From positions 682,001-746,000 of the forward strand of contig OZ287068.1 in assembly GCA_965645245.1 (NCBI GenBank): 64,000 bases of DNA, written 5' to 3'. The notes beneath the pieces were generated by a model. It ran no database searches. It was not told where the DNA came from and saw only the letters and a list, made by a program, of their open reading frames with translations. The translations under genes were made by a program, and so were the position numbers. The DNA comes from Massalongia carnosa. Lineage: Eukaryota. The first letter of the stretch is position 1, and every line of letters begins with the position of its first letter. Positions 23,063 through 48,316 of the stretch are shown piece by piece.

Positions 23063-26000
23063 TCAGAACCCAAAACTGTCCAGCAAGCTATTCGTGTCTG
23101 GTTCCTCGAAGACTTTTTGTGGGGGTGCCTTCAATCCTCGAGGATGGTGTGGAGATCCTAGGCTGGGTAAATCATCAACTACCAAACTACTCCTACGCCT
23201 CAGCATTTTGCGTAGATCAGGCACGCTGCCATTTTTAGTATGTTCAGCAGGCTTTTCTCTTGGCTGGATGAGAAATTCCCAGCTACGCACTATTTCAAAC
23301 TGTTAGCTGGCTGATCCCGCCACCAAAGAGTTTAAAGGAATGATAGAAATAGAACTTACCTAAATCCAAAGCAAGCAGATCACAACCCATACGATCATAG
23401 AGCCTTGCATTCTGAATGACAAATTCCCATTCAGCTCGAGGTGAAATTTTCGAAGCCCCTTTTAGAGTCTGCAATGTCTTCTCTCTAAGTTGCTTATAAA
23501 GGACCACAAGCGCTGGATCATTGGCTAGGTAGGATTTTGATGACAGATTTGGTTTTTCCGGGGTAGGGAACAAAGTATAAACAGGGGACTGTTATAACTA
23601 TCAGAAAATCCTTCGACAAGCGTATTGTGTACATACGATTACAACACAAACAGCCATATCTCGTCGACCAAGCATCCAAAAGGTCCATGTGGCAAGCCAT
23701 CGATTCCCTTCAAGAGCGGCTTGCGGCAGAACTTTGTCCTCCAGGAGTGAGCGAAGCACCATACCATCGTCGCCCTCGTAGACTCGCGCAATAGCAACGG
23801 CGAGCTGGAGGTCTTGAAGCTGATGAGCGCAGACATTGACGGCATCTTGAAGATTGCCAGCTAACAAAAAGAAAGCTGCAGCGTATTCTAGTAGCTGTCA
23901 GCACGTCTTAGCGATCTACAATGAATACCCCTCACCGAAACGCCGTTTACCAAGAAGAGCATACGCGTTCTTTAACGCAGCAGTTTTCCATCTCGGCTCC
24001 ATGAAATTGTTTGACAAGAGCTTCTGGGTCGAGGATTGTTCCCTGTTCCATGCTGCCATGCGCCAAAGGCCAATCAGTACGTTCTTCTTCTTAAGCGCTA
24101 GGTAATATAGACTGCAGTCGACTGGATTTTTTTCATCTGTCTTGGTATACTCATTGCGTGCAATCACCTCAAATTGCGCTCTCTGTAGAACGTTAGCAGA
24201 GATTTGGAAGGAAGATACAGCCTACTGCACTCACCAATGCTGACAAATCTGTCATCCACATGAATATGCCGCTCTCTCTTGCATGTTTCCATAAAAATTT
24301 GCCTTGGAACTGCTTGGAAACAAGATGCACTAGTATATCTTGACTGCCGCTATGATAGGCCCAGACAATTTCCCTCCAGGTGATGCCGACTCGCCCAGCT
24401 GGCGCTTGACTTTTTCTAAGCATATGCTGCCGAAAGAAAAGTAAGTATCGCATCGCATTCTCATCCATGGAACGCCGATGCTTTTCGGCGGTAGCAACAC
24501 ATTCAACGATATCTGCAAGATGAATCTGCTCCTGGCTAGACAAATGTGGTAACGCAAGCTTCGCTAAGTTCTCATTGAGGAGTGCTGCGAGTTCTTCCGA
24601 TACAGTCTCTGGCTCGCTTTCTTCAATAAAGCTAGCATAAGAAGAATGCATCTCCTTGTATGCGCCGTTCGGTTGATCCTGTTAAGGTTAAAAGTTCCTC
24701 ATCATTTACAAACTGGATCACTTACTATCTGTTCAGTAAAGAAGTCATCGACCGGCACTGATACAAAGCTATCTAGCTCGTCTCCAGCACTAAAAAACCT
24801 GAGAGCTTTATGAAGATTGATTATAATCTTTTGGACATGGGCAAGCTTGCCAGCCAAAATGCACTGAGCCAAGAACTGTGGATGAAAAAGGGGAAGAGGA
24901 CCATTCAAATAGGTGACCAGATCGAAGATAGTCATGAGTCGATGTGTATGTACTGGTATTGAAAGGTCCGTGACAAACTCGTCAGAAGTAGTCACATTCT
25001 TGTCGTACACGTAAAGCTGATTGCCGGACCCAACGACCAAATTACCACTTCCAAGCCAGGTACTATCTCCAATGGGATGAGGAGTGGATTCTCTGATTAA
25101 AACTTGTCGTATAGGGGCCCACGCTGGACCTGTGCTGATATAGTCAAACCGCATTTGTGACAGAATCATCACCTTGTGGGGAAAGCCGACAGCAAGAATT
25201 GATTGATCGTCAGGAGTTGATGACCAATCCAGGTCCTGGACAAGATCTTGAATCCCATAACGAACATCATATTCTAATTGGCCGCTGGATGCATCCCAGA
25301 TTGTAAGACCGGTTCTGGCAGCATCAATCACTGCTGTCTTTCTAATCGAGCTCCCGCTTGCAAGGGAAGGGTCGTGGATACCCGTCTCCACACGCGAGGT
25401 AACAAGCCAATTGACGGTGGCTTTTTCAGGCTCTACGACCGCTGCCCAGCCGCAAAGCACGCCACTTCCTGTATAAGATATGGCAACGTCCTTTGCAAAG
25501 GTGTCTAAAAAGCTGGAAGCGACTGATGGAGAACCGGCCGGATCAACAGGGAGCACAAATATAAGATCCTCCTGAGCGCCGAGATCAAAGGAGCAGAACT
25601 CTGTAATAGCAGTATAAGAACGATCTCGAGATCCAGAACGACTCTTTTTATATTCTAATTGTATCTCCCAAACGATGCCTTTCATACGGGATGTAATGGT
25701 AGCCACATAAAATGAGGTCGAGACTCGGTCGGGCCTTCGTAACAATAAAAGACATAAAAGCTTTCCCTCCACTTCAAAGCAGGAAGATGCGACCTCGACT
25801 GCGACATAAGCTCTTGCATCCCAAATAGAAATACTATTATGGTGAAGATTAACAACAAAGTCTCCTTCATCGAGAAGGCATGTCCTATGAATATGCTCAT
25901 CACTGCTTATGGAGCTGTGACGAACCAAGGTCATTCCACTTTTGCAGATTTTTTGCTTCCAGAGTAATCCTTCGTTTTCATTCGTGCGAGAGAGCAGAGC

Positions 26001-35608: not shown

Positions 35609-38600
35609 CTACTCCTCCTGATCTGCATCACCGTCCTCCTCAGCATCGGACACCTGTTCTCCGAATTTCCGTAATGTTTTCTGAATAGGTTAGCCTCGAG
35701 CATTTTATTCAAGGTTGAAGCGCTATATACCTTATCCCTTGACCGTTTCTCCTCCAGATCTCCAAGAACCATGAATAAATCATCAAGTTCAGTTTGCGCA
35801 GTCTTCCGAGATTCTTCTTTAATATCAAGCTCGCCCTGTATGCGCGTTAACCTTGCCTCGGCATCCGCTGCCTTTTCTTCTGCCCGCTCAAGCCTCGACT
35901 CAAGGCTAGACAGCTTTGTAGAATAATCCTCGTGAGCAGTTTCAAGGTCTTGTATGTGATCCTTGTTAGACTTGGCAAGCTCGTTCTCTAGGCTCTGGAT
36001 AGTAGCTTTCAGATCATCAATTTCAGCATCAGTCCTTGCTCGTATCCTTGCTATAGCCGCGTCGCTATCATGTTTGGCTTTCTGCACTTCGTCTTGCATG
36101 GATAGGATAGCAGATTCATAATAAGTCTGAGCTGCCAGTTGGGCAACACGACTCTCCTTCGTAAGCTTTTGCAGATATTCTTCGTGATTTCGTTGCAGCG
36201 CATCGTTGATGTTTTTAATCCTACCTAATTCAATGGCTGCAGACTCTTTCGCCTTCCGATGATCAGCCTGCTCCTGGCCCAGCTTGCGTTCTATCGTCAC
36301 TATCTCGGAATCAAGTTTCTGTATTGTTTGTGAGCGATCCTCCACTTGCGACCTCAAAGAGTCGACTAGTTCACGAGATACACCCTTCTGTATACCATTG
36401 GCAATCACCGGGACTTCAATCCCCGGAGCACGGTCAATTGCACGCAGTATGCGACTGAAATTGTCTTTCAAGAAGTCCACGAATGTCCTGTCAAAATATA
36501 CTTCGGGAAGCCCTCCGAGCTTACTTGAATTTAGACATTGCGGTAGAACCTCAAAATCTCGGACCATAGGATGCTCTCTTAGCCTCGTGATTCTGTCAGT
36601 ATATTGTTCATGACCCAGCTGACCTGTGAGAAGTTGGTGAAGCGTTTCTCTTGGTATCGGGGAATCTTTCGTTGAGAACTCGTATACAATGCCTAGAAGA
36701 AACGCACAAAGACCTGACACCAGAATTCGAGAGGGATTATTTTGGACAACAAGCTGCACTATGCTCTGGACATTACTTCCTTCTCCAAGAAAATCATTTA
36801 CCCCATCATGATCCTCATACAACCACCCACATAGAGTCATTAGATAGCCGATGGCAACTCTTTCATCTCCGTCTTTTCGTTCACTAGATATTAGGTTGCC
36901 TGTCAACGCTTGTATAAAAGTGACTACTTCTTCTCCATTTTCTGCATCACCATCCTTGACGGCCATCGCAGTGTTCTTCGCCTCAAAGTCTTCGTACAGG
37001 AGGTGAAATAATAAAACAGAAGCTATCCACGGCCGATAAGGATCTACTCCACGCTCAGTTTCTGAATCTTCTACAAGGATCGTGAGTATGTTATCAGCCT
37101 CGTGGACTTCAGAGACGTGGCCCTCAATGGCTCTTCGCAGGAAAAATAAGCGTATCTGAGCATGGCCATATAAGTATGCTTTAATGCTTTCCGCTGCGGA
37201 TAGTCGAAGGTCGAAGGTTTGAATAGAAGAAGACTCGGTCAGCGCAAGTTCAAGGAGAGCTTGCAAAACATTGACTCTTGGTAACGGTGTCCTTGTATGT
37301 ACATGGCCATTAACTTGTGGAGCTACATCTTCATCTTGTGGAGAAACGACCTCGAGCTGACCAAAACTTTCCTGGAGACCACTATTTCCCCGTATTAGGT
37401 CCGCAGAAGTTGCCAAAGCCTTGATATATGAATCGTTAACTCAAGGCTATACTCACGTACTTTGAATAGATCCTGGCTTACCTCGGCCCTAATACCAATA
37501 TCAACTGATCTATGAAAAGCTATCTCAAGAATTTCGGTCATGACACCACTCTGCCAGAATGATATTTGATTGGCTTGCGTTCCTATACTTCCTTTGACTA
37601 AGAAAAGCTGTAAGATTGCCAAAAGTCCCCACAAGTTCTTGTCTCGCTGAGGCTTAGCCCATTCAGCAACACCTTCCGGAGAGTCCTGCTCTCGTAAGAC
37701 CTCCTTCAGCAGTCCATGGAGCTTTTTCACCCATCCCGTTTCTCTAAAATATGATTGATTGGAAACATTCAAGCGAAGAAGGTTTGCCAGAAGAGACAGG
37801 CAGTCTTGAACGGCAATGCCACCATTTGTAAGGGAACCTTCGGCATCGATGATACCGAATATCCTATCGAAAGCATTCTCAAAGGCTACGAGTTTCTGAA
37901 GATCTGGAGAGAAGGGAGTGAGCGCCGTGAGCAGAAGCAAACCCTCTACAAAACAGCGATGGTCAGCACAACGTGCTATCTATATACCTATCTAGCGTCA
38001 TACCGTTACGAATAGCTTCTCTCTTATCCTCGAGAACCGCCACTAATCTTGAAACGCCCAGAGGCGCTGTGTAGACACATTCTTGTGTGCGTTGCGGTCG
38101 AGCTGTGGATATGGCAGATATCAGCTGCAAGGAATACAACCGTGAGAAGAATTCGGAAGTATCCAGCAGATCCAGAAGAATGGTAATGTTTTCTTGCCGC
38201 TACTCAATCCAAATCAGTGAGGGCAATTGTATTCCTTGCTCGTATAAGAACTTACCTGAGTAAACTCATCGGCAAGCCAGAGTGCTATGTCTTCTGATGC
38301 CTCCGGCTGCAATACTTTTAGTGCAGTTATGCAATAGCCTCTATGATACTCACACTTGAGTCATCCGGATTGAACAGCATTAGTAGCGTCTCCAGTATCA
38401 CCTTGGTCGTGTCCGCATCTTCCACATCTTTATTGAGACAGCTAATCAAGTTTCTTAATGCCCCGGAAGCTACCGACGCAGGGTATAGCTTCGCGAAGCT
38501 TCTCAGCCCCAATATCGCAGCGCGTCTATCTTCTAGAAGGGTGGCACTTTGCAAGCGTCCACTGAGGGTGTTTATCGTCGTTGTGGCATTTTGCTTCGCC

Positions 38601-38629
38601 GGTGCCTGTGACTCGAGTATGCGGAACAT
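35609..38629 (-). CDS. USO1: ER-Golgi tether Uso1/p115, ~6 exons
   Basis: ATLLEDRRAAILGLRSF, LQKLVAFENAFDRIF head domain, long coiled coil, ELDDLFMVLGDLEEKR, and an acidic tail exon KTLRKFGEQVSDAEEDGDADQEE* (stop at 35609). Confidence 0.94.
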
Positions 38630-39097
38630 GGTGTTATACAGGTAAGGCGGGTCGTAGAACAGTAGTTCTTGAAAGACACATCATTTGATAGGTTGAAGTT
38701 CCGGCTATCCTTTAGGGGATACCTAACAGGGCGCGAAGTTGGCCCTTGTCAATAAACCAACACTGGGACGGAGGGCTCTCTTAGGCGGTCGATAGATTGA
38801 AATGTCCCACATGTCGTAAGGTACGGAGTAGGTATCTTTAGGGCTTCATGTATAAGGCACAATACAGCTAGTTTAGCGATAGTAATATTGCAGCGGCGCA
38901 AATGCTAGTTACTTATCGGGCGCTCCATCAAGCGCAATTCCTCATCGATAACGCCCCAAACCGGGTCCGCCTACGCAAATAAATAAGAGTATAGTATCCT
39001 ACCTTAATCACTGCTTCTGAACGAAACGTGCGGTAAGACACCTTCGCTGCGCATCAGTATTCGTTCTTCTCTGCTACAGTCTACTCTGTACTCGAGT

Positions 39098-39225
39098 GGT
39101 AATTTCTTTCATGCCTCTTGGTTTTCTGCTTGAAATACTGATAGTGTTGATTTATAGTGAGCTTGAAAAACGGAACCACCCCCTCAAACACAGTGCTATG
39201 CTCTGCTTACGCCTAAATTAAATAG
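39098..39225 (+). other. Candidate [D1,2] spliceosomal twin intron in the RAT1 5' leader
   Basis: G39098 + [GTAATT...TACTGAT...TTATAG, 39099-39157] + TGAGC... Removing the inner intron recreates a GTGAGC donor for an outer intron ending AATAG at 39225. Confidence 0.5.
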
Positions 39226-39235
39226 CTATAAAAAA

Positions 39236-42200
39236 ATGGGTGTCCCAGCCCTCTTCAGATGGCTGTCTCAGAAGTATCCCAAGATCGTTTCGTCCGTCAT
39301 CGAAGAACAGCCTCACGAGGTAGATGGACAACAAGTGCCTATTAATACCCTCCGTTCAAATCCCAATGGGGAAGAGTTCGACAATCTGTATCTGGATATG
39401 AATGGAATTGTGCATCCATGCTCTCACCCAGAAGACCGGCCGCCGCCGGCAACAGAAGAGGAGATGATGTTGGCGGTGTTTGCCTATACAGACCGCGTGG
39501 TGAACATGGTTCGGCCGAGAAGGCTTTTGCTTATTGCTGTTGGTATGTCTAAAGCTGTGGAGGTCCAGGATAAGATCTGGGCTTGTGTCCCCTCTGTGGA
39601 CGGCTGCCCTATCTACTGAGATTTCGAAGTCGCCAAGGGGGGTACATCTCTACAATTTACTTATTCTATCTATGAAAATTTGCGCTGACAATCACGATAT
39701 AGATGGAGTAGCGCCAAGGGCGAAGATGAACCAACAACGTTCGCGCCGTTTCAGATCCGCTCAAGAGGCAAAGGAAAAGGATGAAGACAAGGAGGCATTA
39801 CTCAAGATGCTTAAATCTCAAAATGGAGGCGTGGTGCATGAAGATACATCTAGTCTAATGCAAAAGAAAACTTGGGACAGCAACGCGATTACCCCAGGAA
39901 CTCCGTTTATGGACATTCTAGCCGCATGTCTTAGGTATTGGTGTGCGTATAAAATCAATACTGATCCGGCCTGGGAAAAGGTATACTAATCATCTATCTC
40001 AAACCCAAAAAGAGCACTAATGTTCGTAGGTTAAAGTCATCATCTCAGATGCTACAGTTCCAGGGGAAGGAGAACATAAGATAATGGAGTTTATCAGATC
40101 TCAGCGGGCTTCCCCTGACCATGATCCCAATACCCGCCACGTAATATACGGTCTTGTGTGTGATGAAATGATCTTGAACAACAGGCGGCTAATTATCAAT
40201 ATAGGATGCTGATCTTATCATGCTAGGACTAGCAACCCATGAACCTCATTTCCGTGTTCTGCGTGAAGATGTTTTCTTCCAAGAATCCAAAGCGCGAACA
40301 TGCCGCATCTGTGGACAAAAGGGTCATTTAGCGGACGCCTGCCTTGGGGAGGCAAAACAAAAGGACGGAGATTTCGACGAGAAAGATAAAGCCTTGGCCT
40401 TAAAGCCTTTCATCTGGCTCCATGTTTCGATCCTTCGGGAGTATTTGGAGGCGGAGCTCTATGTGCCACAGCAGCCGTTTCGATTCGATTTAGAGAGAGC
40501 TTTGGATGATTGGGTATTTATGTGCTTCTTCGTGGGGAATGACTTCCTCCCACATTTGCCAAGCCTTGACATCAGAGAGAATGGGATTGATACTCTCATT
40601 GCGATTTGGCGCGATAACATTCCTCTCATGGGTGGTTATGTTACTAAAGATGGTCACGTCGACTTAGAGCGAGCCCAATTTATACTAGATGGCTTGGCAA
40701 AACAGGAAGATGCGATCTTCCGACGCCGTCGACAAACAGAAGAGCGAAGAGATGCAAACGCCAAACGTCGAAAGCTTGATGAGCAGAGCAGAAGCAATAA
40801 TCGAAGCTCTAGCAGCGCAAATTCTGCCGGACCTAATACTCGTCGCAAATCTCCAGACTACACCACGCCCACCCATCATGGTACACCCCGCGCTAAGCCA
40901 GTAAACCCCACAGTGGCTCCCCCAGACCTTCCTCTATTCATTCCTAGTAAAGGTCATATCTCACGAGAGGAAAAGGCAATGACCCATGACATGGTTGTAA
41001 ATCGTAATTCGGTCTATAAAGCGAATATTGCAAATAAAAGTGCTGCGGCTACGCTGAAAAGCCGACTACTCAATGGCGGTAGGGGCAGCGAGGTTCCAGG
41101 TTCATCCACTGACAAGGCTCAAGACACCGTTGGACAAGTAGAGCCTTCTGAGAATGTGGAAGCAGAGAAAACGCCTTTATCAGCTCTAGGCAAGAGAAAA
41201 GCGGAGTTTATAGATGACGACGATAGCAGCACTCCCGGCCGCAGTTCTCCGAATCCTTCCAAGACGAACGGAGACATTGATGAGCCTCCACCAGACAATA
41301 TTCGTCTATGGGAAGAAGGCTATGCTGACAGATATTATGAGCAAAAGTTCAGCGTTGACCCCAAGGATGTTGGATTTCGCAGCCAGGTTGCAAAGGCGTA
41401 CGTTGAAGGCCTTGCTTGGGTGCTACTATATTACTTTCAAGGCTGTCCGTCTTGGACCTGGTACTATCCTTACCATTATGCTCCTTTTGCTACGGATTTT
41501 GTCGATTTGAATCGAATGAGTATTAAGTTCGAGAAAGGGAAACCTTTCAAGCCTTTTGAACAGTTAATGGGCGTTTTGCCCGCCGCTTCCAATCACGCCA
41601 TCCCAGAGGTTTTTAGGTCCTTGATGAATGACGAAGACAGCGATATCATTGATTTCTACCCAGAAGAGTTCCCTATTGACCTTAACGGTAAGAAATTTGC
41701 GTGGCAAGGGGTTGCTTTGTTGCCTTGGATTGATGAAAAGCGACTATTAAGCGCTATGGCAACTAGATACCCACTACTGTCAGCAGAAGATGCAGCCAGG
41801 AACGAAATGGGCAAAGATGTACTGATAATGTCTGATCGCCACCCTCTGTATGAGGATGTAGCAACCAATTTCTATTCCAAACGCCAAGGACTCCCAGTAT
41901 TTAAAATAAACCCTCAAGTGAGCGGGGGTCTAGCCGGTAGTGTTGAGAAAAACGAGGATTACTTACCTCAGAGCGCTCTTACATTCCCGTTAGACGATGG
42001 TGGAATGCCCAACCTCGATGAGGATCACTCAATCAGGTATGTCCTAATTGAGTTATTGGATGATTTGCTCTCTAACGACGACGCTAGTGTTCACTATGAA
42101 ATGCCTCGCTCCACGTACATTCATAAATCAATGCTTCTTGCCGGCATCAAATTTGCTCTGCCGGCACTCGATCGTGCTGATATTGAAGCAACAAAGGCTC

Positions 42201-42652
42201 GCGCGAACCGCTCAGGCCGTTCATATGGGGGGGTACCATTGCGAGGCGATCAAGGAAACGGTCGTAGTCGAGGTGGTCAAACTCAATTTGCTGACCCGAG
42301 GCCTAACCCTTTCGCCGCCCACGTCAATCCAGGTTTCCTTCCGCAGGTCGTGCCAGGAAATTATCGGGGAGGGCCACCTCCGCCCCCAGCAGGTTGGGGG
42401 CCCCCTCCGCCAGGATCTGAAGATTTTCGACGGGGTCCTCCGCCACCGCCCAGTTCATATGGAGGCCTTCCTCATGGATATCCGCCCCTTCCACAAAACT
42501 TCAATTACGGTAGGCCGCCCCCACCTTCACCCCAAGGCTACTATAATGGACATCATGATGGAAGTTATGGGACTCAATTTTCCAGCAACCAATACTCCGG
42601 TCCACCTCCAGATGGTCGGTATGGAGGGTATCACGACAGGAATGGCAGATGA
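39236..42652 (+). CDS. RAT1: Nuclear 5'-3' exoribonuclease Rat1/Xrn2, 5 coding exons
   Basis: [65 protein letters not shown] knuckle [14 protein letters not shown] and a Pro/Gly-rich tail. Confidence 0.97.
39543..39702 (+). other. 160-nt RAT1 intron containing a ~105-nt predicted three-way-junction RNA structure
   Basis: GTATGT donor, GCTGAC branch at 39684 and ATAG acceptor. Stems found by hand: 39556-63/39647-54, 39564-69/39576-81 and 39584-93/39637-46. Confidence 0.6.
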
Positions 42653-43282
42653 TATATCTGTTTTTGATCGAGGTTTCCTGCGATCGACGACGTCAGGCAA
42701 GGGCATATTATTTTTTTTCTTTTTCGGATGTGTACTTGATGTATTTTGATTTCCCAGATAAGTCCGGCATTCCGCAAACACGATGCCGTGTAACGTAGGA
42801 CAGTATAATACCCACGTTTGAAGGGTCCAGAACCCCTAGTTCCTCTGTCGTTGGTAGGACAATGTAAAAGTTTAAATTCGGCCTCCGAGAGGCGACAAAT
42901 ATAGCAACTTATAGAGAATGACCTAGCAATACAGGAGAAGCGAGATCTTTCTTCCAATCCCGATGTAGCAAACATCTTTCTTAAGCTTGAGAGAATGATC
43001 TTCTTCAACAATTCAATAAATCTAGACTTCGTTGTTCTCAGCGGCAGGTAACTCTCCAGTTACGGGTATGATGATGATGGGGGAATAATAGAGAAGAATC
43101 TTACCATCCGCTTCACCGTGGGTCTGCTTGCTTTTCAGCCCCCAGGCTAAATCCATAATACTTAAATATGAGGGTCACGGTTAAGTGTAACATTCAATAT
43201 TGATGCCAGCATTGTATTTAGTTAAGTGATTTTCTGGCTCAAGATTGTTGCTGGCGGAAGTGAAACAGTTCCTCATTTCTAG

Positions 43283-48316
<5,034 letters not shown>

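What the first reader, a model, noticed from the sequence alone, without database searches (positions are those of the whole stretch)
39098..39238. Candidate stwintron in the RAT1/XRN2 5' leader that hides upstream ATGs
Seen: a 59-nt intron-like segment (GTAATT donor 39099, TACTGAT branch 39136-42, TTATAG acceptor 39157) is preceded by G39098 and followed directly by TGAGC. Excising it creates G|TGAGC, a good donor for a second 69-nt intron (GCTTAC branch candidate 39205-10, AATAG acceptor 39225) ending 10 nt before the Rat1 ATG. An alternative inner donor G|GTAAGA at 39033 would give the same junction. The unspliced leader carries ATG39111 (36-codon uORF ending TAA39221) and an in-frame ATG39198; only two-step splicing removes both. 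Known: [D1,2] stwintrons are described in Pezizomycotina. Inference: sequential splicing could gate translation or NMD of a nuclear RNA-decay enzyme, possibly as feedback. I know of no report for RAT1 leaders.
Basis: partly seen in the sequence, partly recalled or inferred. Interest (0 to 1): 0.8.

Follow-up and report, generated by a model that had tools for sequence, protein, structure and literature searches.

The report
Possible spliced leader of a RAT1 gene
The untranslated leader of a lichen fungus's RAT1/XRN2 gene carries two upstream start codons flanked by intron-like signals, so it is probably spliced, but whether this takes the proposed two nested steps cannot be told without RNA data.

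Summary
The gene is RAT1/XRN2 of a Lecanoromycete-like fungus.

The motif pattern alone is at chance level:
- The candidate fails the published strict [D1,2] search formula. The inner donor GTAATT lacks G5, and the outer intron has no DYTRAY branch site.
- 0 of 49 distinct orthologous leaders show the pattern.

No RNA run exists for this organism, so no junction could be checked.

One independent argument favours splicing. In the 49 relatives the nearest sense upstream ATG lies a median 230 nt from the start, and none lies within 60 nt. The antisense control has a median of 35 nt. In this window the nearest upstream ATG is at 38 nt, and at 207 nt only if 39099-39225 is removed.

My odds:
- Both upstream ATGs are spliced out: 0.40 (two-step about 0.22, one-step about 0.18).
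- No leader splicing: 0.37.
- Only 39157-39225 is spliced: 0.13.
- Only the inner intron is spliced: 0.08.

This is a plausible, unproven candidate of modest interest.

The parts
38327..38629 (-). First coding stretch of the divergent upstream gene (Uso1/p115-like by recall; no Pfam hit). Its ATG is at 38629.
   Evidence: ORF and translation. Pfam found nothing. The same N-terminus lies upstream on the opposite strand in 59 loci of relatives.
38905..39110 (+). 206-nt stretch with no sense ATG upstream of the candidate. This is the likely first leader exon; the transcription start is unknown.
   Evidence: ATG positions in 38630-39235 are 38802, 38811, 38848, 38902, 39111 and 39198. It holds a TATA-like run at about 38978-38998 and a C+T tract at 39060-39093 (26 of 34 bases). 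The roles of these two features are inferred.
39032..39038 (+). Alternative start of the inner intron: G39032 followed by GTAAGA, a canonical donor.
   Evidence: GTAAGA is one of the 24 donors in the published model A. It lies 98 nt from the inner branch site, outside the 25-80 range of that model.
39099..39157 (+). Candidate inner intron of 59 nt: GTAATT ... ACTGAT ... TAG, preceded by G39098.
   Evidence: The branch site and acceptor fit DYTRAY and HAG with a 12-nt spacing. The donor lacks G5 and is not among the 24 donors.
39157..39162 (+). Intact direct donor GTGAGC, made of the last G of the inner acceptor plus TGAGC. It competes with the two-step route.
   Evidence: If it is used first, the inner acceptor is destroyed and a 47-codon uORF from ATG39111 overlaps the main ATG out of frame.
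39158..39225 (+). Rest of the candidate outer intron (69 nt counting a leading G). The branch candidates are GCTTAC (39205-10) or CCTAAAT (39212-18). The acceptor is AATAG.
   Evidence: Neither branch candidate fits DYTRAY. 36 of 40 homology-defined introns of relatives have DYTRAY.
39111..39221 (+). 36-codon upstream ORF. The in-frame ATG39198 gives a 7-codon version.
   Evidence: Translations. The peptide is not conserved in the 80 loci of relatives (best E 0.87, none in a leader).
39236..42652 (+). RAT1/XRN2 coding region with four introns: 39543-39702, 39981-40029, 40156-40204 and 42037-42087.
   Evidence: Pfam XRN_N at 1.5e-29 and XRN_M at 4.3e-139. Joined frame. The fourth, in-frame intron is shown by a 17-residue gap in six homologues.

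Best explanation
The segment 39099-39225 (or 39033-39225) of the RAT1 primary transcript is intronic and absent from the mature mRNA. Its removal takes away both upstream ATGs (39111, 39198) and leaves a leader with no AUG for about 200 nt, as in related fungi.

The route is unresolved. I slightly favour two steps (about 0.22 of the 0.40):
- The best branch site and acceptor in the leader (ACTGAT ... TAG at 39157) should be used first, from GTAAGA39033 or GTAATT39099.
- Both of these donors are preceded by a G. That first cut therefore rebuilds G|UGAGC, from which a second cut to 39225 can follow.

A single cut from 39099 or 39033 straight to 39225 is the other route (about 0.18).

Shown: the motifs, and the uATG contrast with relatives. 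Inferred: that the transcript starts upstream of 39099, that any splice occurs, and the order of the cuts.
For: (1) Nearest sense uATG in 49 distinct orthologous leaders:
- Median 230 nt; 0 of 49 within 60 nt; 28 of 49 beyond 200 nt.
- The antisense control in the same DNA has a median of 35 nt, and 28 of 49 within 38 nt.
- Shuffles have a median of 58 nt.
- The neighbouring Uso1-like leader shows no such purge: median 25.5 nt, 19 of 22 within 60 nt.

(2) The window has uATGs at 38 and 125 nt.
- Removing 39099-39225 gives 207 nt.
- Removing only 39157-39225 gives 56 nt.
- Removing only the inner intron gives 38 nt.

(3) 206 nt upstream of 39111 are ATG-free. Only 97 of 980 shuffles exceed 200 nt.

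(4) Splice-like signals bracket exactly the uATG-bearing stretch and end 10 nt before the start.
- The hybrid motif TAG|TGAGC fits HAG+URWGY.
- The inner branch site and acceptor are canonical.
- The lengths of 59 and 69 nt resemble the gene's own introns of 49, 49, 51 and 160 nt.

(5) Weak signals do occur in real introns here.
- The gene's own intron 2 has donor GTATAC.
- One relative's intron 1 has only an ACTTAC-type branch site.
Against: - No RNA data exist at all. The four runs found are genomic contigs without joints.
- The outer branch site is non-canonical. DYTRAY is present in 36 of 40 homology-defined introns, and in 17 of 18 in the strict set.
- GTAATT lacks G5, which 33 of 40 introns have (18 of 18 in the strict set).
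- The strict model A is not matched.
- A relaxed single-intron pattern ending within 30 nt of the ATG arises by chance in 6 of 49 relatives, 6 of 49 reverse complements and 362 of 2000 shuffles.
- Relatives show no leader intron signal: canonical pattern in 3 of 49 forward against 11 of 49 reverse, none ending within 60 nt of the ATG.
- The intergenic length of 606 nt is like that of the closest relatives (582-633 nt), so there is no sign of an inserted 127 nt.
- Base composition does not discriminate.
- The transcription start is unknown.
Confidence: 0.4

Rival explanations
1. There is no splicing in the leader. Either transcription starts downstream of 39198, giving a leader of at most 37 nt, or the upstream ATGs stay in the mRNA. 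In the latter case they are lineage-specific uORFs that are tolerated by leaky scanning or used to damp translation. The splice-like motifs are then chance matches.
For: - The motif patterns are at chance frequency (relaxed pattern 4 against 2.4±2.0; canonical intron 156 against 152.9).
- A relaxed intron pattern ending near the ATG occurs in 6 of 49 relatives and 362 of 2000 shuffles.
- Relatives show no leader intron signal and no [D1,2] pattern, 0 of 49.
- The outer branch site and the inner donor are off consensus.
- Both uATGs lack A at -3 and G at +4, while the main ATG has both. That these are weak and strong Kozak contexts is recalled.
- A TTTATAG at 39151-57 could act as a TATA element for a short leader (inference).
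Against: - 0 of 49 orthologous leaders have a uATG within 60 nt, whereas the window has one at 38 nt.
- The 206-nt ATG-free stretch upstream of 39111 would then be a coincidence: 97 of 980 shuffles exceed 200 nt.
- The uORF peptide is not conserved.
- The 7-codon uORF ends 14 nt before the main ATG. That such a short gap is poor for reinitiation is recalled.
Confidence: 0.37
2. There is one ordinary 69-nt leader intron, 39157-39225, cut directly from the intact GTGAGC donor. Transcription starts between about 39112 and 39150, just after the C+T tract, so ATG39111 is never transcribed and ATG39198 is spliced out. No nested splicing is needed.
For: - GTGAGC at 39157 is intact in the genome and is one of the 24 canonical donors.
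- The C+T tract at 39060-93 ends just upstream. That starts in filamentous fungi often lie right after such tracts is recalled.
- The length of 69 nt is typical.
Against: - It uses the same non-canonical branch site as the outer intron.
- The first exon would be only about 10-45 nt.
- The long ATG-free stretch upstream of 39111 is left unexplained.
- If transcription starts further upstream, this cut yields a 47-codon uORF that overlaps the main ATG out of frame.
Confidence: 0.13
3. Only the well-signalled intron 39033-39157 (125 nt; or 39099-39157) is removed. The 7-codon uORF at 39198 stays in the mRNA as a translational brake.
For: GTAAGA ... ACTGAT ... TAG is the only combination in the leader in which donor, branch site and acceptor all fit the published canonical motifs (the single canonical match in the window's 400 nt upstream).
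Against: - It leaves a uATG at 38 nt, which none of 49 relatives has.
- A canonical-pattern match is expected by chance about once per 0.8 kb per strand.
- The regenerated GTGAGC donor would invite a second cut.
Confidence: 0.08

Closest known systems
[D1,2] spliceosomal twin introns (stwintrons) of Pezizomycotina (Flipphi, Fekete, Karaffa and co-workers). I read passages of PMC5639578 and PMC9024468, plus section 2.1 of PMC9024468.
   Same: - A G is followed by a complete small intron whose acceptor abuts URWGY, so excision rebuilds a GURWGY donor. Here that is G|...TAG|TGAGC.
- Both parts have typical fungal intron lengths (59 and 69 nt).
   Different: - It fails the published search formula at the inner donor (no G5) and the outer branch site (no DYTRAY).
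- It lies in a 5' leader, so no reading frame forces the two-step route.
- No splicing intermediate or exon junction has been seen.
- It is not present in 49 orthologous leaders, whereas most described unique stwintrons share their position among related species (PMC9024468 passage).
Ordinary 5'-UTR introns that remove upstream AUGs (a general eukaryotic feature; recalled)
   Same: An intron-like stretch ends 10 nt before the start codon and contains all the near uATGs. After removal the leader resembles those of relatives.
   Different: The 3' branch site is off consensus. A much better internal branch site and acceptor sits in the middle, which makes a single clean cut less likely.
Sheared sister stwintron HCOc046A in the 5' UTR of a Hypoxylon sp. 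CO27-5 gene, 29 nt upstream of the start codon (PMC8469720, passage seen)
   Same: A stwintron-related element lies in a fungal 5' leader close to the start codon.
   Different: That element belongs to a repeated, sequence-similar family of one Sordariomycete lineage. The stretch here has no other copy in the window or in the 80 related loci, and it comes from a Lecanoromycete-like fungus.
XRN2 autoregulation in Caenorhabditis elegans (PMC5025045; title and start of abstract seen)
   Same: It is a precedent that the level of this nuclear exonuclease is under feedback control.
   Different: It is an animal. I did not read the mechanism in that paper, and nothing here shows feedback.

Membership tests
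[D1,2] stwintron | The complex intron starts with two Gs: G1 of the outer donor directly followed by a full inner donor. | tested here: met
   G39098+GTAATT and G39032+GTAAGA. The first donor is off consensus.
[D1,2] stwintron | The inner intron has a canonical donor (G at +5; one of the 24 hexamers of model A). | tested here: inconclusive
   GTAATT is not among the 24. GTAAGA39033 is, but it lies 98 nt from the branch site, outside the model's 25-80 range.
[D1,2] stwintron | The inner branch site is DYTRAY, with an HAG acceptor 4-20 nt downstream. | tested here: met
   ACTGAT at 39137-42, a 12-nt spacer, then TAG at 39155-57.
[D1,2] stwintron | Hybrid motif HAG+URWGY: excision rebuilds a canonical outer donor. 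| tested here: met
   TAG|TGAGC gives G|TGAGC, and GTGAGC is among the 24 donors. This is in silico only.
[D1,2] stwintron | The outer intron has a DYTRAY branch site and an HAG acceptor. | tested here: not met
   There is no DYTRAY in 39163-39221, only GCTTAC and CCTAAAT. The acceptor TAG is present.
[D1,2] stwintron | Match to the whole published search formula (model A). | tested here: not met
   0 hits on the plus strand of the window.
[D1,2] stwintron | A splicing intermediate lacking only the inner intron is detected in RNA. | not testable with these tools
   No RNA holder is listed, and the four runs laid are genomic contigs.
[D1,2] stwintron | The mature mRNA lacks the whole complex intron, including the leading G. 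| not testable with these tools
   No RNA data exist.
[D1,2] stwintron | The same position is occupied in orthologues of related taxa. This is usual but not obligatory. | tested here: not met
   0 of 49 distinct orthologous leaders match model A or the relaxed model. The nearest relative is 86% identical in exon 1.
RAT1/XRN2 5'-3' exoribonuclease (host gene) | XRN_N and XRN_M domains, and orthology to fungal 5'-3' exoribonuclease 2. | tested here: met
   Pfam E-values of 1.5e-29 and 4.3e-139. The best named hits are '5'-3' exoribonuclease 2' of lichen fungi at 63-75% identity.

The most novel reading that the evidence does not exclude
The leader is a splicing-order gate on RAT1 dosage.
- If the inner intron is cut first, G|UGAGC is rebuilt, a second cut follows, and the mRNA has a clean AUG-free leader.
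- If the intact GTGAGC at 39157 is used first, the inner acceptor is destroyed. The mRNA is then a dead end, with a 47-codon uORF that runs out of frame over the RAT1 start codon. It is poorly translated and possibly an NMD target.
- The ratio of the two orders, perhaps influenced by Rat1's own action on nascent or unspliced RNA, would set enzyme output.
Probability: 0.05. Interest if true: 0.75.

Novelty: new member of a known kind. Interest (0 to 1): 0.3.

Why it matters
If real, this would be a stwintron, or at least a uATG-hiding leader intron, in a lichen-forming fungus and in the gene for the nuclear 5'-3' exonuclease. In a leader, unlike in a coding region, the order of the two cuts decides between a translatable and a blocked mRNA.

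No report for RAT1 turned up in the searches I made. The full-text search for 'stwintron' found 12 papers. Two of them hold 'UTR' and two hold 'untranslated'. 'Exoribonuclease' occurs 0 times in the two papers I searched for it.

A by-product stands on its own. RAT1 leaders across about 49 fungal lineages are kept free of upstream AUGs for a median of 230 nt. That is a testable constraint on how this enzyme is translated.

Tried and rejected
- **RNA evidence:** no RNA holder is listed. All four runs laid are genomic contigs, with no joints.
- **Whole genome:** none is held, so genome-wide intron statistics and repeat copies could not be obtained.
- **Earlier findings of this scan:** none.
- **ORF-joining search for introns in the window:** too noisy, with 58 clusters on the plus strand alone, many of them spurious. 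I abandoned it.
- **Second homology-based intron extraction:** it gave only 18 introns, which I kept as the 'strict set'.
- **Alignment of the whole Uso1-RAT1 intergenic region with nine relatives:** mean column identity 40%, with no usable anchor.
- **Shared 8-mers and an ATGTAAT-like motif as a distance anchor:** inconclusive.
- **Bracketing of relatives' uATGs by canonical introns:** 2 canonical-like matches among the 13 loci listed; one of the 13 was not properly read, as it had too little upstream sequence. I saw no pattern.
- **Base composition of the candidate against leaders and introns:** T of at least 47% is rare in both, in 10 of 1421 and 5 of 434 windows. It does not discriminate.
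- **RNA fold of 39020-39245:** z = -0.04.
- **Rfam on 38600-39750:** 0 matches.
- **Repeat copies of 39000-39235 in the window and the 80 loci:** none beyond 12-nt chance words.
- **Conservation of the uORF peptide:** none.
- **Published frequency of fungal 5'-UTR introns:** I found no figure, so my prior of about 5-10% is recalled.
Full report
**What is there**

- G39098, then GTAATT at 39099.
- TACTGAT at 39136-42.
- TTATAG ending at 39157, directly followed by TGAGC.
- GCTTAC at 39205-10.
- AATAG ending at 39225, then 10 nt and ATG39236.
- A second possible inner donor, GGTAAGA, at 39032-38.
- ATG39111 opens a 36-codon uORF ending at TAA39219-21. ATG39198 lies in the same frame and gives a 7-codon version.

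The last G of the inner acceptor plus TGAGC is itself an intact GTGAGC donor at 39157. This holds for every [D1,2] arrangement. In a coding region the reading frame shows which donor is used. In a leader nothing does.

**The gene and the organism**

- The ORF from 39236 carries XRN_N (1.5e-29), and the large downstream ORF carries XRN_M (4.3e-139).
- The best named relatives are '5'-3' exoribonuclease 2' of lichen-forming Lecanoromycetes, for example Pseudocyphellaria aurata at 75%. The gene is therefore RAT1/XRN2 of a Lecanoromycete-like fungus.
- The coding region has four introns:
  - 39543-39702: GTATGT ... GCTGAC ... TAG.
  - 39981-40029: GTATAC ... ACTAAT ... TAG.
  - 40156-40204: GTGTGT ... 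GCTAAT ... TAG.
  - 42037-42087: a 51-nt in-frame intron, GTATGT ... TCTAAC ... TAG. ORF reading misses it, and six homologues show it as a 17-residue gap.
- Upstream, on the other strand, a Uso1-like gene starts at 38629 (the name is recalled, since Pfam found nothing).
- The two start codons are 606 nt apart.

**RNA evidence**

None could be had.
- The run search listed four holders, none on record as RNA.
- Laid on 37000-43500, all four are genomic contigs. Three are near-identical long pieces and one is a low-depth set of short pieces. There are no joints, no differences and no informative ends.
- No whole genome is held.

**Is the motif pattern more than chance?**

No.
- I took the exact [D1,2] search formula ('model A') from section 2.1 of PMC9024468. 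It requires:
  - a G plus one of 24 donors, all with G at +5;
  - DYTRAY branch sites;
  - HAG acceptors;
  - set spacings.
- The candidate fails it twice. GTAATT is not among the 24 donors, and there is no DYTRAY in 39163-39221.
- With GTAAGA39033 as inner donor, the donor-to-branch distance is 98 nt, outside the 25-80 range.
- In the window, model A has 0 hits on the plus strand and 1 on the minus strand. Thirty dinucleotide shuffles give a mean of 0.23.
It has 4 start sites (39032, 39098 and two on the minus strand), against 2.37±1.97 in shuffles (max 7).
- A plain canonical-intron pattern has 156 starts against 152.9±14.0, so such patterns carry almost no information by themselves.

How strict real introns are:
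- Among 40 distinct RAT1 introns of relatives, defined by protein alignment only, 33 have G5, 36 have DYTRAY and 40 have HAG. These 40 are what remained of 51 found after removing identical copies.
- Four of the seven non-G5 cases lie in a low-complexity part and are doubtful.
- In a stricter set, 18 of 18 have G5 and 17 of 18 have DYTRAY.
- Weak signals are not impossible. The gene's own intron 2 has GTATAC, and one relative's intron 1 has only an ACTTAC-type branch site.

**Relatives**

- A scan of metagenome contigs with exon 1 gave 80 loci, 69-86% identical over the matched residues of exon 1.
- 75 of them had a recognisable MG[VI]P start, and 70 had at least 300 nt upstream without N.
- Collapsing near-duplicates (more than 30% shared 12-mers) left 49 distinct leaders.
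- Dropped before any count were 5 loci without a start, 5 that were too short or held N, and 21 duplicates.
- In the 400 nt upstream of the start:
  - model A matched 0 of 49;
  - the relaxed model matched 0 of 49;
  - the canonical single-intron pattern matched 3 of 49, against 11 of 49 on the reverse complement;
  - none ended within 60 nt of the ATG.
- The leaders are not alignable.
- The divergent Uso1-RAT1 pair is conserved in 59 loci, with 321-824 nt between the starts. The closest relatives have 582-633 nt, so the window's 606 nt shows no extra 127 nt.
The nearest relative is distant enough that a young, lineage-specific feature would not be seen.

**The one argument that favours splicing**

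Distance from the start codon to the nearest upstream ATG:

| Sequence set | Median | Other counts |
|---|---|---|
| 49 orthologous RAT1 leaders, sense strand | 230 nt | 0 of 49 within 60 nt; 11 of 49 within 125 nt; 28 of 49 beyond 200 nt |
| Same DNA, antisense | 35 nt | 28 of 49 within 38 nt |
| Shuffles | 58 nt | 353 of 980 within 38 nt |
| Neighbouring Uso1-like leaders | 25.5 nt | 19 of 22 within 60 nt |

The first three rows are and the last. RAT1 leaders are therefore long and kept free of upstream AUGs, specifically on the sense strand.

The window breaks this rule, with uATGs at 38 and 125 nt. Further upstream it then has 206 nt without any ATG. The nearest uATG under each splicing scenario is:

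| Segment removed | Nearest uATG |
|---|---|
| None | 38 nt |
| Inner intron only | 38 nt |
| 39157-39225 only | 56 nt |
| 39033-39225 | 141 nt |
| 39099-39225 | 207 nt |

Only removal of the whole stretch makes the leader look like its relatives. The alternatives are a very short leader or lineage-specific uORFs. The uORF peptide is not conserved.

**Weighing**

- Against splicing stand:
  - a low prior for a leader intron (about 5-10%, recalled);
  - no sign of one in relatives;
  - an off-consensus outer branch site;
  - the fact that a relaxed intron pattern ending within 30 nt of the ATG arises by chance in 6 of 49 relatives, 6 of 49 reverse complements and 362 of 2000 shuffles.
- For splicing stands the rarity of a near uATG in this gene's leaders (0 of 49), together with the ATG-free stretch upstream.
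- A rough Bayesian combination of these figures gives about 0.3-0.6 for 'both uATGs are spliced out'. I settle on 0.40.
- Given that, the two-step route is slightly the more natural (about 0.22 against 0.18):
  - The only canonical branch site and acceptor in the leader is the internal one at 39141/39157, so a donor at 39033 or 39099 should pair with it first.
  - Both donors happen to be preceded by G, so G|UGAGC is rebuilt for a second cut.
  - A one-step cut would have to skip that good internal site in favour of a weak one.
  - This reasoning rests on intron-definition pairing in filamentous fungi, as stated in a PMC5639578 passage. It is inference.
- My odds for the rivals are:
  - no leader splicing, 0.37;
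  - a single ordinary intron 39157-39225 with a start just after the C+T tract at 39060-93, 0.13;
  - the inner intron only, 0.08.

**Other checks**

- The region has no Rfam match.
- It has no unusual fold (z = -0.04).
- It has no repeat copies.
- Its composition does not separate intron from leader.

**Comparison with what is known**

- [D1,2] stwintrons are established in Pezizomycotina and are proven by detecting the intermediate RNA (PMC5639578 and PMC9024468, passages).
- One stwintron-derived element in a 5' UTR, 29 nt before the start codon, is on record in Hypoxylon (PMC8469720, passage).
- I found none reported for RAT1:
  - 12 papers hold 'stwintron'.
  - 'Exoribonuclease' occurs 0 times in the two papers I searched for it.
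  - Two papers hold 'UTR' and two hold 'untranslated'.
  - I did not open the supplementary tables of these papers, which list the host genes, so a RAT1 case there cannot be excluded.
- XRN2 autoregulation is known in C. elegans (PMC5025045; listing and abstract start only).

**Verdict**

- The pattern is not statistically remarkable.
- Strict family membership is not met.
- The two-step mechanism is untested.
- The idea that this stretch is intronic and hides upstream AUGs gains real, though indirect, comparative support.
- If it is real, it is a new member of a known kind, and its interest is modest until RNA is examined.

Noticed in passing
window 42037-42087 (+): RAT1 has a fourth coding intron of 51 nt: GTATGT ... 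TCTAAC ... TAG. It is in frame and free of stops, so ORF-based reading adds 17 false residues. Six homologues lack them.
   Followed up: yes
window 39981-40029 (+); L032 3249-3297, L033 3250-3298: RAT1 intron 2 has a donor without G at +5: GTATAC here, GTACAC in two related loci. An off-consensus donor seems to persist at this intron position.
   Followed up: partly
window 23158-23360 (-): This is the only match in the window to the published strict [D1,2] stwintron formula. Removing just the first 70 nt (23290-23359) keeps a long open frame, and a repeated WEF.IQ motif continues through the supposed outer intron. It is most simply a plain intron followed by coding sequence. Full removal would instead give a stop 8 codons later.
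   Followed up: partly
window 38327-39236; L001-L080: The divergent Uso1-like/RAT1 gene pair is conserved in 59 of the 80 related loci, with 321-824 nt between the two start codons.
   Followed up: partly
loci of relatives, 300 nt upstream of the RAT1 start: RAT1 leaders are free of sense-strand upstream ATGs for a median of 230 nt (0 of 49 within 60 nt). The antisense control has a median of 35 nt. This is a strong, gene-specific constraint.
   Followed up: yes
loci of relatives, upstream of the Uso1-like start; window 38630-38690 (-): In 19 of 22 relatives an ATG lies within 60 nt upstream of the assumed Uso1-like start (median 25.5 nt; 52 and 55 nt in the window). This could be a conserved small uORF or a different true start.
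   Followed up: no
L003, L005, L010, L032, L045 at 436-529 nt upstream of the RAT1 start; window about 38847: A shared ATGTAAT-containing block lies in the intergenic region of several relatives. The window has only a loose look-alike (CATGTATAA). It may be a promoter element.
   Followed up: no
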